This document shows, piece by piece, positions 34,827-43,199 of a stretch of 64,000 nucleotides of DNA. The position numbers were made by a program, and so were the translations under genes. The DNA is taken from the sequence record MT150133.1. One strand, written 5' to 3'. How positions within the stretch are numbered: position 1 is the stretch's first letter; every line of letters begins with the position of its first letter. Below the pieces are notes generated by a model that searched no databases, was not told the origin of the DNA, and saw only the letters and a program-made list of their open reading frames with translations. Source of the stretch: Enterobacteria phage vB_EcoM_IME540.

Positions 34827-35399
34827 TCAACTCGTTATTTCTATCCAGTGCTTCCTGCACAATGACACGTAAGAATCGTTGCCACCTATAGAAACTTGGG
34901 CTCCGTCCTTAATTGCGATACCATCTTGGATACGAGCCGTCATAGTAGCTTTACGGCCGCAATGGCACACACCTTTGTACTCAACGAGTTTATCTGCCGT
35001 AGCGAGTAATTCAGCAGAGCCAGGAAACAGTTTACCCTGAAAATCAGTTCTTAGCCCATAACACATAACTGGAACATTATAATTGTCTACTATCTTCGCC
35101 AGTTGTTTTATCTGTGCAGGTTCTAAGAACTGTGCTTCATCCACAAATACACAGTGGATATCTTTTTGAGATTCAGCCCAACGATAGAACTCGTATAGGT
35201 CCATATCCGGAGTCACGGCATTAGCCTCTTGACTAATCCCTATACGAGACGAAATGCTATGGCTTGATTCTCTATTGTCTACCGCGGGCTTTAAAAGGAG
35301 TACGCCCATACCACGTTCTTTGTAGTTATGAGCTGCCGTTAGCAATGAAGCGGTTTTCCCGGAATTCATCGCCGCATAGTGAAACATCAAGCTTGCCAT
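34827..35399 (-). CDS. tk: thymidine kinase
   Basis: 190 aa; P-loop YAAMNSGKT and C-terminal Cys cluster typical of type II TK; syntenic with T4 tk. Confidence 0.9.
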   Translation of the reverse strand: MASLMFHYAAMNSGKTASLLTAAHNYKERGMGVLLLKPAVDNRESSHSISSRIGISQEANAVTPDMDLYEFYRWAESQKDIHCVFVDEAQFLEPAQIKQLAKIVDNYNVPVMCYGLRTDFQGKLFPGSAELLATADKLVEYKGVCHCGRKATMTARIQDGIAIKDGAQVSIGGNDSYVSLCRKHWIEITS

Positions 35400-36124
35400 T
35401 TAAATACAACTCCTCTATAAGAGCAATTAGGATAACCTTTGCTTATAGCTATCTTTTTAAACATATATGCTGAAGGCTTATTGGATTCTTCCCATAAGAG
35501 TTTTAATTCATCGTAAAATTTCCAAGATTCGTTTCTTATAGGAGAAGGTTTTCCTGCCATAGCGCCCTTTTTACCGTACATGGGATTCTTTTTGCCCTTT
35601 TTGGCGTTACTCATATTTTCTATGGTTTCAGCGCTATGTTTAAATCCTTTTAATTTTTTAGAGGCTAATCCTATTTTAGCTTTATGCTCATCACTAAATC
35701 CTATTCTATTGGAATAATGGTTTAAACCTTTATTAGAAGTGGTGAATTTAGAAGCTTCTATTCTGGCTTTGCTCCATTTAACTCCTTTTCTAGACCTAGA
35801 CATTTTCTGTTTAGTTAAATTAGATAATTTGGTTCCTTTCTTTTTACCTCTTCCGCCATCAGCAAAATTTAAAGAATGCTTACCATATTTTAATTTAGCC
35901 TTTTCAACTAAAGGAATTTCGGCGGCATACGCCTCTTCTTCAGATTCGAAGAATTCTAATATACGAGTTTTATAAGGATGCTTTTTACAAATATTTTTAA
36001 CTACCGTACCACTTCCATAATACCCGTCTGAAAGATTATCAGTGGAGTGTTTACCTACATAGTAATAATTTGCCTTATGGGTTTTTATTACAGTCAAGTA
36101 ATTATAATGGAATTCCTTTGCCAT
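35387..36124 (-). mobile_element. GIY-YIG homing endonuclease (Seg-like)
   Basis: YYYVGKHST...DGYYGSG GIY-YIG core plus a basic repeat-rich DNA-binding tail; overlaps the tk start by 13 nt. Confidence 0.75.
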
Positions 36125-36133
36125 ATTACCTTC

Positions 36134-36340
36134 TTAAAGCGTATTCACATAAGCTATTAATTCGTTTTCTTTCTCATCAAATCGATTGACAAATTCTTCC
36201 TGATGTTCGGGAGATAGCGGGCCATATTCATCATAAAAAGAATTTGCTTCTGCATGCTCATCTAGAAGTTCATGGATAAGCTCAAACAATTTATCTTTCT
36301 GTTCTTTACTCAGACTCATAACCATTGTACCTTTAAGCAA
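36134..36340 (-). CDS. hypothetical acidic protein (68 aa)
   Basis: coding-strand ORF. Confidence 0.45.
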   Translation of the reverse strand: MLKGTMVMSLSKEQKDKLFELIHELLDEHAEANSFYDEYGPLSPEHQEEFVNRFDEKENELIAYVNTL

Positions 36341-36528
36341 TATTCTTCTACATGCTGCTTACGTTTATTTTTATCTATAAAAGTATATTCAACATATTCA
36401 CCGATATACCATTTATCGGTGTTGTGTTGACTTTTTATAGGGCATTTAGTTACTCGGGTTTCGGACCAGTGTCGAATAATTTCCGCTTTATTTTTAGGGT
36501 CAAACGGATGCGGGTAATGGGCTTTCAT
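36316..36528 (-). CDS. hypothetical protein (70 aa)
   Basis: coding-strand ORF. Confidence 0.45.
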   Translation of the reverse strand: MKAHYPHPFDPKNKAEIIRHWSETRVTKCPIKSQHNTDKWYIGEYVEYTFIDKNKRKQHVEEYCLKVQWL

Positions 36529-36967
36529 AATCTACCACCACTAAATTAATATCAGGAGTAAACAAATTAATCAATTGGTAAACCTTGTCCCAATCACCAC
36601 CAGCAATACCACAACCGATGCGAGGAATATAAATTCTTGGTTTAAACAAAAGACCTTTTGCTTGTTGATTTAATTCTATCATACAGTTTACTAAAGCACC
36701 GTAATCAAGATTAGGGCCTGGTTCGTATTGGGTGTATAAATTATAGCAAATTTGGCCCTTATTACCTGTGGCTTGAGTAAACGTGCCAAGTTTTTCCAAA
36801 TGGCCTAAATAAGTGGTTTTATCGATAGCGAGAATAGGCGGATAAGCCTTAGCCAATTGCCCAGCTACACCTGAACCCATTGTGTGGAAACAGTTACACC
36901 CGTGTGCAACATTATTACCTTGAAGAAATAGGGCGACAATATCGCCCTTAATATAATCAATAATCAT
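36500..36967 (-). CDS. macro-domain-like protein (ADP-ribose binding/processing)
   Basis: GDIV...NNVAHGCN...GSGVAGQL...IPRIGCGIAGG resembles macro-domain GDIT / NAAN / GGGV / I-P-x-IS-G-GxxG motifs. Confidence 0.5.
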   Translation of the reverse strand: MIIDYIKGDIVALFLQGNNVAHGCNCFHTMGSGVAGQLAKAYPPILAIDKTTYLGHLEKLGTFTQATGNKGQICYNLYTQYEPGPNLDYGALVNCMIELNQQAKGLLFKPRIYIPRIGCGIAGGDWDKVYQLINLFTPDINLVVVDYESPLPASV

Positions 36968-37320
36968 TTAGAGTTTAATCCTCGATTGTATGAATCAACG
37001 AGTCTGTCTACCATAGACGCGCACATTTCTTTGTACTTTTTATCAGATGGAATACATTCAGTAACGTTTAGACGTTGCTCGTATCTTTTAGAAAGAGTTT
37101 TCTCTTTCATTCGACGATGCTCTACGTCGTTCTGCCCATCTTTAAAAGCAGCCGTGATTTTTGAACTGAATTCGATAATGCATTCAGTATTACTCGGATG
37201 ACAATAATCTTTTGCTGTACGGGTAGCATACTCGACAATTGAATTATTACTATCATAAACTTGTGACGCTAATACTCCCGGAGCAATCAACATAAGCGCT
37301 ATAGTCATCTGCTTAATCAT
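36964..37320 (-). CDS. secreted protein (signal peptide)
   Basis: N-terminus MIKQMTIALMLIAPGVLASQ is a signal peptide; Cys-containing mature domain. Confidence 0.5.
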   Translation of the reverse strand: MIKQMTIALMLIAPGVLASQVYDSNNSIVEYATRTAKDYCHPSNTECIIEFSSKITAAFKDGQNDVEHRRMKEKTLSKRYEQRLNVTECIPSDKKYKEMCASMVDRLVDSYNRGLNSK

Positions 37321-37884
37321 TTAATATACCGCCTCAAACATCTTTTTAGATTTTAGATAATTGGCCTTTTCTAGAACTTCAGAAGCATATTTACTGCCTG
37401 CTTCGACGTTCCAGCCCGCATTATAAGAAGCAATCGCTTTTCTCAGGTCACCTTTGTGAACATCAATCCAATAAGACAGTTCAATGTAGGCCCAAGAGGC
37501 ACTGTTCTGTCGTTTTTGGACCATACGAATTATTTCTTTGTCTGACATCTTCCAACCTACCTGTTGAACACGACTTCTTAACGTAGGCAAGTAATTTTGG
37601 AACATGCCATAAGCATGGTGCTTATCTTTATTTAAACCCTGATTAATTCCGGCAGATGATTCCTGCCATAGTAATCCGGCCATAATATATCCTAATCCTT
37701 TTTGATTAGGGGTTTCTTTGAACTTTCCCGACTTTTGGTATTGTTCACCGAAAGCATACGCATAATGTAAATTATCGAGCTGGGTTTCTGTAAATACGGG
37801 TTCTGCTGCACTTACAGAAAACGAACCACACATAATAGCCGCTATTAAAGAATATTTAAGTTTTTTTAGAAAAATCATAATCAA
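37321..37884 (-). CDS. lytic transglycosylase (SLT-domain) with signal peptide
   Basis: LLWQESSAG (catalytic E-S) and AYNAG-like ASYNAGW motifs; N-terminal signal peptide. Confidence 0.55.
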   Translation of the reverse strand: MIMIFLKKLKYSLIAAIMCGSFSVSAAEPVFTETQLDNLHYAYAFGEQYQKSGKFKETPNQKGLGYIMAGLLWQESSAGINQGLNKDKHHAYGMFQNYLPTLRSRVQQVGWKMSDKEIIRMVQKRQNSASWAYIELSYWIDVHKGDLRKAIASYNAGWNVEAGSKYASEVLEKANYLKSKKMFEAVY

Positions 37885-38590
37885 TAAGTCCTCGGTAATC
37901 TACATTAGGGAAGCCGTTCTTAATTGCGATTTTACTAAATCTTCCACACTTGAGCTTATTATTATCTACCCATAATTTATATAATTGTGAATACATCGGT
38001 TCATGCCATATAGGGGATTTACGCAAAGAGGCTTTTTTCCTTTCTATAGTTTCTTTAGAATTTTGTATGGCTTTAAATTTTTGTCTATTTTCAGGATTTT
38101 CAAAATACTTAACCCGTTTTTCAGACATTTTAGCTTTTACTTTTGGCGAATTTAAAATTTCTTTGAGCCGTTCTTTAGAGCCTTCCTTTTCAAAATACTT
38201 TATTAAAGCCATTGAATGAGCAGCCCTATTTTCCTTTTTAGAGAAAAATAAAATTTTATTAATAGATTGCAATTTTGAAAATGATTCTTTAGCCAACTTA
38301 TAATTTTCAGAATCTACAAAATAAGACCTTTGTTTTGAATTTGAAGTAGAGCTCATATTTAACCAGGCAAAATTCAACCCATAGTGGTTTGGATTAGCTT
38401 TGGCTAGATACATATGGGCCAAATAATGTTCATCAGCATAAAGCTCAACTAAATTGTCTTGAGTGTCAGGACCACCAACACAACTCGGAATTATATGATG
38501 CTTTTCTGTATAGGCGTCATTAGGTGTATCCCTAGATAAGGCCGCATTTATTATTTTATAGTAGTCATATGGATATTTTATAGTTTCCAT
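37856..38590 (-). mobile_element. HNH homing endonuclease (Mob-like)
   Basis: EKHHIIPSCVGGPDTQDNLVEL...EH HNH motif; C-terminal tail resembles that of the Seg-like protein at 35387. Confidence 0.7.
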
Positions 38591-42520: not shown

Positions 42521-42970
42521 TCAAAAGAGCGAGTCTAAAACCTTAAACATCGACGGGCCCATGACATATTCCCATTGAGGTCGTTTAATCAAGGCGAACG
42601 CATCGAATTCAGGAATAGTACGACCCTCAGGGAATGTATGGTAAGCCGTACATTTGCAATCCTTGAACTGCTCGTGTTCCACAGGCACCGTATATAAGAA
42701 CAGATGTAGATTCTTATTGCTTGAATATTTGAACTCACCTAGGTCTTTCAGGAATGCAGGATCGTATGCTGTGAATCCAATCTCTTCTTCGGTTTCGCGC
42801 ATTGCCGCTTGAATAGGCTCTTCGCCTGGTTCGACATGACCTTTAGGAATGTCCCATTTATGACGCATATTCTCTGGATTACGAGAGCCTGTTACACGAC
42901 CCATGACCAGTTCTTTATCAACGGTCATGAATAAAATACCTGCCGATAATTCCTTAGCTTTCTTACTCAT
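42521..42970 (-). CDS. nudE: Nudix hydrolase NudE
   Basis: Nudix box GHVEPGEEPIQAAMRETEEEIG; start trimmed to MSKKAKEL (149 aa). Confidence 0.8.
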   Translation of the reverse strand: MSKKAKELSAGILFMTVDKELVMGRVTGSRNPENMRHKWDIPKGHVEPGEEPIQAAMRETEEEIGFTAYDPAFLKDLGEFKYSSNKNLHLFLYTVPVEHEQFKDCKCTAYHTFPEGRTIPEFDAFALIKRPQWEYVMGPSMFKVLDSLF

Positions 42971-43199
42971 CGTCTCGTTCCCATGATTGTTTAAAAATAT
43001 CTTGCATAATAATTTGAAGTCTATTTTCTGTTGATGGACTTTCACTATCAGACACTTGAAGCATATAGTCACCAATAGGACAGAACATATCCAAGTCGCT
43101 TTCTAAATCTTCTTTGATTTTCTCTTCTGACGTTCCGGTATCATAGGAATACAGATAAGAATCACATGACTCGGATTTAATATAAATCGCAATACTCAT
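42963..43199 (-). CDS. hypothetical acidic protein (78 aa)
   Basis: coding-strand ORF. Confidence 0.45.
   Translation of the reverse strand: MSIAIYIKSESCDSYLYSYDTGTSEEKIKEDLESDLDMFCPIGDYMLQVSDSESPSTENRLQIIMQDIFKQSWERDDE

What the first reader, a model, noticed from the sequence alone, without database searches (positions are those of the whole stretch)
36500..36967. Macro-domain-like protein in the tk-regB accessory region
The motifs GDIV, NNVAHGCN, GSGVAGQL and IPRIGCGIAGG are consistent with an ADP-ribose binding/hydrolysing macro domain. A phage macro domain could reverse host ADP-ribosylation-based defence or process NAD-derived signals.
Basis: inference. Interest (0 to 1): 0.55.

Follow-up and report, generated by a model that had tools for sequence, protein, structure and literature searches.

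The report
Phage tk.4/adfM macrodomain, anti-DarTG2 factor
This 155-residue gene is a real macrodomain enzyme, the counterpart of phage T4 gene tk.4 (adfM), which was recently shown to protect T4 from a bacterial defence that ADP-ribosylates phage DNA; it is a correct but already explained finding.

The parts
36500..36967 (-). tk.4 / adfM coding sequence (155 aa plus stop): a stand-alone ALC1-like macrodomain.
   Evidence: ORF. Pfam Macro and PHROG 335. 53% identity over the full length to T4 Tk.4. Same position as Bp7 tk.4 and T4 tk.4. AF2 model and fold searches.
36893..36904 (-). Codons for H22-G23-C24-N25, the N-terminal active-site motif.
   Evidence: H22, G23 and N25 are invariant in 59 family members. 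The motif aligns with SCO6735 H24-V25-C26-N27 (alignment, assuming a 20-residue tag offset in the PDB chain); the Val25 backbone is proposed to position the catalytic water (PMC9411070). N25 aligns with N23 of PhiKZ AdfM, whose N23A mutant has reduced DNA de-ADP-ribosylation (PMC13309987).
36854..36877 (-). Codons for G31-S-G-V-A-G-Q-L38, the first glycine-rich ADP-ribose-binding loop and helix (the macro GxG motif).
   Evidence: G33 and A35 are invariant and G31 is 54/59. The segment aligns with TARG1 'MGAGIAVLF'. The GxG loop is described as part of the ADPr cleft in PMC9503650.
36728..36742 (-). Codons for N76-L-Y-T-Q80; Q80 occupies the position of the catalytic Lys of TARG1 (K84) and DarG (K80).
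   Evidence: N76, Y78, T79 and Q80 are invariant in 59/59 sequences. The profile alignment puts 'NlYTq' on TARG1 'YLITK' and BT1257 'NMIGQ'; an independent MAFFT alignment gives the same register. PMC9411070 states that SCO6735 Gln85 is equivalent to K84/K80 and that Q85A and Q85E are inactive.
36590..36625 (-). Codons for P115-R-I-G-C-G-I-A-G-G-D-W126, the second glycine-rich (diphosphate-binding) loop; A122 sits where TARG1 has D125.
   Evidence: P115, G118, G120 and W126 are invariant. The segment aligns with BT1257 and SCO6735 'PRIGCGLAGGxW' and TARG1 'PRIGCGLDRLQW'.
36964..36967 (-). ATGA overlap: the tk.4 start codon overlaps the stop codon of the upstream gene vs (36964..37320), suggesting coupled translation within one transcription unit.
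   Evidence: Read directly from the sequence (+ strand 'tcat' at 36964-36967) and the ORF coordinates. The same arrangement occurs in Bp7 and T4.

Best explanation
The ORF is the Dhakavirus ortholog of T4 tk.4 (adfM), a stand-alone ALC1-like macrodomain expressed from the early/middle minus-strand gene block tk-tk.2-tk.3-tk.4-vs-vs.1-regB. It most likely acts as a DNA ADP-ribosylglycohydrolase. When the host DarTG2 system is triggered, DarT2 attaches ADP-ribose to thymidines in single-stranded phage DNA and blocks replication. The phage macrodomain binds the ADP-ribose between its two glycine-rich loops (GSG 31-33 and GCGIAGG 118-124) and hydrolyses the thymidine-ribose bond. This restores replicable DNA and acts as an orphan antitoxin. 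Catalysis is inferred to follow the SCO6735 type. The invariant Gln80 positions the distal ribose and the transition state, and a backbone carbonyl in the H22-G23-C24-N25 motif positions the water. There is no lysine nucleophile of the TARG1/DarG kind. What is shown: the fold, the orthology, the conservation, the T4 knockout phenotype and the SCO6735 biochemistry. What is inferred: that this ortholog has the same target, and that its chemistry is the Gln type.
For: (2) Orthology: 53% identity end to end with T4 Tk.4. The gene has the same neighbours, vs upstream and tk.3 downstream, in T4 and Bp7. PHROG 335 gives E=3e-67.
(3) Function of the ortholog: in a T4 transposon library, tk.4 was the single significant hit on a DarTG2 host, and a clean knockout sensitised T4 to DarTG2 (10.1101/2025.11.20.689424). 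T4 lacking adfA and adfN stays DarTG2-resistant, which predicted such a factor (PMC11825919).
(4) Chemistry precedent: SCO6735 is a Gln-type ALC1-like macrodomain that removes DarT-made thymidine ADPr and rescues cells from DarT; Q85A and Q85E are inactive (PMC9411070). Q80 of this family aligns to TARG1 K84 and to the BT1257 Gln and is invariant in 59/59 sequences.
(5) A second, DarG-type phage macrodomain (PhiKZ gp104) removes DarT2 ADPr from DNA in vitro (PMC13309987).
(6) Purifying selection: dN/dS is 0.08-0.21.
Against: No biochemistry exists for any Tk.4-type protein; the T4 result is genetic and comes from a preprint. This protein is only 53% identical to T4 Tk.4. T4's diphosphate loop (GAGIGKGNW) differs from the one here (GCGIAGGDW). 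The elongated lysine-bearing 'mobile loop' that PMC9411070 links to efficient DNA handling in SCO6735 and BT1257 is absent: the loop is 6 residues shorter than in BT1257 and carries no lysine. The protein is mildly acidic (pI 5.8), although the DNA-active PhiKZ AdfM is more acidic still (pI 5.05). Similarity to DarG models is weak (PADLOC 23.8 bits; NCBIfam 20.3 bits against a cut-off of 250). Poa1p, a small-molecule phosphatase, is as close structurally as DarG.
Confidence: 0.7

Rival explanations
1. The protein processes small ADP-ribose derivatives rather than DNA adducts. Candidate substrates are ADP-ribose-1''-phosphate (Poa1p-like phosphatase, the origin of the 'phosphatase' annotation), O-acetyl-ADP-ribose, or ADPr-derived immune signals and toxic metabolites. 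It might also feed ADP-ribose into NAD+ salvage.
Against: The only experimental phenotype for an ortholog is specific to DarTG2, which modifies DNA. The 'phosphatase' label is transferred annotation, not a test. No 2'-phosphotransferase (Tpt1/KptA), which would generate ADPr-1''-P, was seen among the ORFs scanned in this window. The activities are not mutually exclusive.
Confidence: 0.12
2. The protein neutralises DarT2 mainly by binding it (interaction-inhibition, an antitoxin mimic), and hydrolysis is dispensable.
For: Catalytically dead SCO6735 Q85A, DarG K80A and TARG1 K84A all inhibit DarT in vitro, SCO6735 most strongly (PMC9411070). ICP1 AdfB is described as an antitoxin mimic (title of PMC11481870).
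Against: The family's invariant residues (H22, G23, N25, G33, N76, Y78, T79, Q80, G118, G120, W126) are the ADPr-binding and catalytic positions, which is what an enzyme would conserve across hosts with different DarT proteins. The protein lacks the C-terminal DarT-binding domain of DarG: it is 155 aa, and it matches only positions 3-142 of the 329-position DarG model.
Confidence: 0.08
3. The protein reverses ADP-ribosylation of proteins or RNA rather than DNA. Possible targets are marks written by the phage's own Alt/ModA/ModB enzymes or by other host ART defences such as mRNA-targeting systems.
For: TARG1 and SCO6735 also hydrolyse protein-linked ADPr (PMC9411070). T-even phages encode several ARTs (PMC9503650).
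Against: As far as I know from the literature (not tested here), Alt, ModA and ModB modify arginine, and ALC1-like macrodomains are not known to cleave that linkage. The TARG1 Lys84/Asp125 dyad used for Glu/Asp-linked ADPr is absent; the equivalent residues are Q80 and A122. No phenotype supports this role.
Confidence: 0.07

Closest known systems
Phage T4 Tk.4 = AdfM (anti-DarT factor Macrodomain), HIDEN-SEQ preprint 10.1101/2025.11.20.689424
   Same: Both are 155 aa with 53% identity over the full length. The gene order vs-tk.4-tk.3 is the same, with the same overlaps. Every family-invariant residue is shared, including Q80. Both belong to PHROG 335.
   Different: The diphosphate loop is GCGIAGGDW here (the family consensus) and GAGIGKGNW in T4. 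Residues 60-75 are diverged, with a 3-residue indel. Other Tequatrovirus phages (for example L14) carry an allele 77% identical to this one, closer than T4's own. Anti-DarTG2 activity has been tested only for T4.
Streptomyces coelicolor SCO6735 (PDB 5E3B) and Bacteroides BT1257 (2FG1/2AFC): Gln-type ALC1-like macrodomains
   Different: Identity is only 24-29%. The 'mobile loop' after the Gln is 6 residues shorter here and lacks the Lys residues. The protein is acidic rather than basic (pI 5.8 against 8.4 for BT1257). It is phage-encoded rather than chromosomal.
DarG antitoxin of DarTG2 (T. aquaticus and M. tuberculosis macrodomains 5M31/5M3E/5M3I) and the DarG-type phage AdfM of PhiKZ (gp104)
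   Different: Gln replaces the catalytic Lys80 ('FPTK'). There is no C-terminal DarT-binding domain and no adjacent darT. Matches to DarG models are weak (23.8 and 20.3 bits, against 132.9 bits for PhiKZ gp104). The family alignment is 18% identical to PhiKZ AdfM. The two proteins named 'AdfM' therefore look like independent recruitments from different branches of the class.
Human TARG1/OARD1 (4J5S) and yeast Poa1p (6LFQ)
   Different: The TARG1 dyad Lys84/Asp125 is replaced by Q80/A122. Poa1p is a phosphatase acting on free ADPr-1''-P.

Membership tests
Macro domain superfamily (Pfam PF01661) | Sequence match above the curated gathering score | tested here: met
   32.6 bits against a cut-off of 22, E=8.5e-8, covering residues 22-132.
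Macro domain superfamily (Pfam PF01661) | Three-layer alpha/beta macro fold with two glycine-rich loops lining the ADP-ribose cleft | tested here: met
ALC1-like macrodomain class (TARG1, DarG, Poa1p, SCO6735/BT1257) | Closest structural and profile neighbours are members of this class rather than the MacroD, PARG, macroH2A or viral nsp3 types | tested here: met
T4 Tk.4/AdfM orthologous group (PHROG 335) | Full-length similarity to T4 Tk.4 | tested here: met
   53% identity over 155 aa, E=8e-62. PHROG 335 E=3e-67.
T4 Tk.4/AdfM orthologous group (PHROG 335) | Conserved position between vs and tk.3 in the tk-regB block of Tevenvirinae | tested here: met
   Window order is tk.3 36316..36528, tk.4 36500..36967, vs 36964..37320. 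The order is the same in T4, Bp7 and L14.
T4 Tk.4/AdfM orthologous group (PHROG 335) | Protects the phage from DarTG2 | not testable with these tools
   Shown only for T4 by knockout.
SCO6735/BT1257 subclass | Gln at the position of TARG1 Lys84 / DarG Lys80, with no Asp125 equivalent | tested here: met
   Q80 lies under TARG1 K84 and the BT1257 Gln; A122 lies under D125. Q80 is invariant in 59/59 sequences.
SCO6735/BT1257 subclass | Mobile loop about 5 residues longer than in TARG1/DarG, carrying Lys89 and Lys94 (PMC9411070) | tested here: not met
   BT1257 has a 6-residue insertion relative to this family. The loop here is of TARG1 length (YEPGPNLDY) and has no Lys.
DarG antitoxin (DarTG2) | Match to the curated DarG equivalog model | tested here: not met
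   NCBIfam NF048014 gives 20.3 bits against a cut-off of 250. PADLOC DarG gives 23.8 bits, against 132.9 for PhiKZ gp104.
DarG antitoxin (DarTG2) | Catalytic Lys80 in the macrodomain | tested here: not met
   The position is Gln. This follows by transitivity: the alignment to TARG1 K84 and the K84=K80 equivalence stated in PMC9411070. The direct alignment to the DarG-type PhiKZ protein is ambiguous by one or more positions at this site.
DarG antitoxin (DarTG2) | C-terminal DarT-binding domain and an adjacent darT toxin gene | tested here: not met
   The protein is 155 aa and matches only positions 3-142 of the 329-position DarG model. Its neighbours are vs and tk.3.
TARG1-type glycohydrolase | Lys84/Asp125 catalytic dyad | tested here: not met
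   The equivalent residues are Q80 and A122.
Poa1p-type ADP-ribose-1''-phosphate phosphatase | Phosphatase activity on ADPr-1''-P | not testable with these tools

The most novel reading that the evidence does not exclude
T4-type AdfM (this family) and PhiKZ-type AdfM may be two independent phage recruitments of different ALC1-like macrodomain branches. The T4 type would use a lysine-free, Gln80-dependent mechanism with a short, uncharged loop. That could go with a wider or different substrate range than DarG, for example small ADPr derivatives linked to NAD+ salvage, as hinted by the NamPT/PRS neighbourhood in Acinetobacter phages, or ADPr on RNA or protein. Anti-DarTG2 activity would then be only one facet of its function.
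Probability: 0.2. Interest if true: 0.45.

Novelty: already known. Interest (0 to 1): 0.2.

Why it matters
It confirms that this Dhakavirus carries the anti-DarTG2 counter-defence gene adfM. This is useful for predicting phage host range on DarTG2-bearing E. coli, and for correcting the uninformative 'phosphatase' and 'hypothetical protein' labels in hundreds of phage records. The one point that goes beyond the literature I could read is mechanistic. The T-even AdfM family has an invariant Gln where DarG and TARG1 use Lys. This places it with SCO6735/BT1257 rather than with DarG. It also suggests that the two phage proteins named AdfM (T4 Tk.4 and PhiKZ gp104) are mechanistically distinct.

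Tried and rejected
1. A residue-level alignment to DarG itself could not be obtained. The PDB sequence tool prints only the five best alignments, and DarG ranked 8th and 13th. A C-terminal fragment query lost DarG altogether. I used the DarG-type PhiKZ gp104 sequence from PMC13309987 instead. hhalign and MAFFT align it well overall but are ambiguous by one or more positions around 'FPTK'. The Q80=K80 equivalence therefore rests on the TARG1 alignment plus the published structural equivalence.
2. The single-sequence phmmer alignment to BT1257 places 'NLYTQ' on 'GIYKD'. I rejected this register in favour of the profile and MAFFT register, which keeps the invariant N and Q aligned and explains the difference by a loop insertion.
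3. Promoter and terminator consensus scans around the gene gave no more sites than shuffled sequence and were not used.
It was rerun without that row.
5. I considered low pI as an argument against DNA binding and dropped it, because the DNA-active PhiKZ AdfM is more acidic.
6. I did not use the metagenome or genome scans, the 1.84-billion-representative search or cluster look-ups. The identity of the gene was already settled.

Full report
**Observation.** The window has an ATG-initiated ORF at 36500..36967 on the minus strand that encodes 155 residues. I checked two of them back to the DNA: 36728..36742 reads NLYTQ and 36590..36625 reads PRIGCGIAGGDW. The start codon overlaps the stop codon of the upstream gene in an ATGA (36964-36967). 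The 3' end overlaps the next gene by 29 nt. Both arrangements are identical in phage Bp7.

**Is it a real gene and a real macrodomain?** Yes.
- Pfam Macro (PF01661) matches residues 22-132 at 32.6 bits against a gathering cut-off of 22.
- PHROG 335, labelled 'phosphatase', matches at E=3e-67.
- tblastn finds relatives in 2732 of 50,697 phage records.
- A 59-sequence family alignment has 16 invariant positions: H22, G23, N25, G33, A35, D49, G61, N76, Y78, T79, Q80, G84, P115, G118, G120 and W126.
- dN/dS against orthologs in Bp7, L14 and T4 is 0.08, 0.19 and 0.21.
- An AlphaFold2 model built on 58 sequences has mean pLDDT 94.5 and pTM 0.89.
- Foldseek against the PDB returns TARG1, Poa1p, BT1257, DarG and SCO6735 at E 1e-9 to 1e-6 and TM about 0.7-0.85.

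The protein belongs to the ALC1-like class of macrodomains.

**What gene is it?**
- Megablast places the window in the JS98/Bp7/JS10/IME08 group of T-even phages, genus Dhakavirus, at 94-97% DNA identity.
- In those records the ORF is annotated tk.4.
- The neighbours confirm this. They are tk (34827..35399, Pfam TK), tk.2 (DUF7438), tk.3 (DUF7202), vs (PHROG 1256), vs.1 (PHROG 600) and regB (Pfam REGB_T4).
- T4 Tk.4 is also 155 aa, is 53% identical end to end, and lies in the same place between vs and tk.3.

**What is known about it?**
- A November 2025 preprint (HIDEN-SEQ, 10.1101/2025.11.20.689424) screened a T4 transposon library on E. coli expressing DarTG2. The single significant hit was tk.4.
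- A clean knockout made T4 sensitive to DarTG2. The authors renamed the gene adfM, anti-DarT factor Macrodomain. They inferred, but did not show, enzymatic removal of ADP-ribose from DNA.
- This fills a gap noted earlier: T4 lacking adfA and adfN is still DarTG2-resistant (PMC11825919).
- Independently, a Cell Reports 2026 paper gave the same name AdfM to PhiKZ gp104. It showed that the purified protein removes DarT2-made ADP-ribose from DNA and that an N23A mutant is impaired (PMC13309987).

**How it most likely works.** DarT2 ADP-ribosylates thymidine in single-stranded DNA and blocks replication; DarG reverses this with its macrodomain (PMC11825919, PMC9411070). The phage protein is best read as an orphan antitoxin-like glycohydrolase that cleans phage DNA.

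The active site, however, is not DarG-like.
- The profile alignment to TARG1 places the family's invariant 'NLYTQ' on 'YLITK'. Q80 therefore sits at TARG1 Lys84, and A122 sits at Asp125. An independent MAFFT L-INS-i alignment gives the same register.
- BT1257 has 'NMIGQ' in the same columns.
- PMC9411070 reports that SCO6735 is 54% identical to BT1257 and has Gln85 at the position of TARG1 Lys84 and DarG Lys80. Q85A and Q85E are inactive.
- SCO6735 efficiently removes DarT-made thymidine ADPr and rescues cells from DarT. A water held by the Val25 backbone is proposed as the proton donor.
- Val25 lies in SCO6735's H-V-C-N motif. This aligns to the invariant H22-G23-C24-N25 here (assuming a 20-residue tag offset in the PDB chain).
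- N25 also aligns to the N23 mutated in PhiKZ AdfM.

I therefore infer a Gln-dependent, lysine-independent mechanism of the SCO6735 type.

One subclass feature is missing. The elongated lysine-bearing mobile loop of SCO6735 and BT1257 is absent; the loop here is of TARG1 length and uncharged or acidic.

**Membership versus mechanism.** The protein is a member of the macro superfamily, of the ALC1-like class and of the Tk.4/PHROG 335 orthologous group. It is not a DarG.
- NCBIfam's DarG equivalog scores 20.3 bits against a cut-off of 250.
- PADLOC's DarG model scores 23.8 bits, against 132.9 for PhiKZ gp104.
- The catalytic Lys, the C-terminal DarT-binding domain and an adjacent darT are all absent.
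- PhiKZ gp104 carries the DarG-type 'FPTK', and the Tk.4 family alignment is only 18% identical to it.

The two proteins called AdfM thus appear to come from different branches of the class.

**Rivals.**
- Small-molecule ADPr processing is not excluded. Poa1p is as close in fold as DarG. The family is widely labelled 'phosphatase'. A 35%-identical homolog sits next to NamPT and near a PRS-family gene in an Acinetobacter phage. Against it, the only phenotype is DarTG2-specific.
- Pure interaction-inhibition of DarT2 has a precedent in catalytically dead SCO6735, DarG and TARG1. It fits poorly with invariant catalytic-site residues.
- Reversal of protein or RNA ADP-ribosylation has no supporting data, and the TARG1 dyad is absent.

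**Verdict.** The gene is an ortholog of a named T4 gene whose anti-defence role has already been reported, and near-identical proteins (98%) are deposited. Novelty is low. The only increment is recognising the Gln-type active site and its difference from DarG-type AdfM.

Noticed in passing
window 35387..36124 (-) and 37856..38590 (-): Two free-standing homing-endonuclease genes bracket the tk.2-tk.3-tk.4-vs-vs.1 block. One has a NUMOD3 motif (PHROG 314) and lies between tk and tk.2. The other is HNH/mob-like (PHROG 655) and lies between vs.1 and regB. Bp7 has neither at these positions, and most close relatives lack one or both (the megablast matches break at their edges).
   Followed up: partly
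L004 1501..1980 (Escherichia phage L14, Tequatrovirus), compared with L001 4001..4468 (T4): tk.4 alleles do not follow genus boundaries. The Tequatrovirus L14 protein is 77% identical to this Dhakavirus protein, whereas T4's is only 53%. This suggests allele exchange among T-even genera at this locus.
   Followed up: partly
L003 904..4474 (Acinetobacter phage vB_AbaM_B09_Aci01-1): A 35%-identical Tk.4-family macrodomain lies immediately downstream of a nicotinamide phosphoribosyltransferase gene. A ribose-phosphate pyrophosphokinase-family gene and an RNA ligase lie just upstream. A Vibrio phage hit (H48) also abuts a PRS gene. This may link the family to NAD+ salvage.
   Followed up: no
L001 4001..4468 (T4 Tk.4), residues 117-126: T4's diphosphate-binding loop reads GAGIGKGNW, whereas the family consensus and this window read GCGIAGGDW. 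The experimentally studied T4 protein is the outlier at A122 (53/59 Ala) and G123 (55/59 Gly).
   Followed up: no
window 42521..43075 (-): A nudE-type Nudix hydrolase (PHROG 1185, E=4e-72) lies about 6 kb from tk.4. The literature describes the T4 enzyme as acting on ADP-ribose. It is a second ADPr-handling enzyme in the same early region.
   Followed up: no
window 36930..36948 (-): A perfect 8-bp GC-rich hairpin (AGGGCGAT-ATT-GTCGCCCT) lies inside codons 7-13 of tk.4 and was flagged by the terminator-like scan. The scan total (6 sites) was not above the shuffled expectation (3.6 +/- 1.7), so this may be chance.
   Followed up: no
window 50953..51027 (-) and 51740..51810 (-): Two phage tRNA genes are present: tRNA-Arg(TCT) and tRNA-Met(CAT).
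   Followed up: no
window 37321..37884 (-): As listed, the vs.1 ORF starts at a TTG and its first 29 nt overlap the 3' end of the inserted HNH homing-endonuclease ORF. Bp7 vs.1 is 8 codons shorter (180 against 187 aa), so the true start may be an internal ATG.
   Followed up: no
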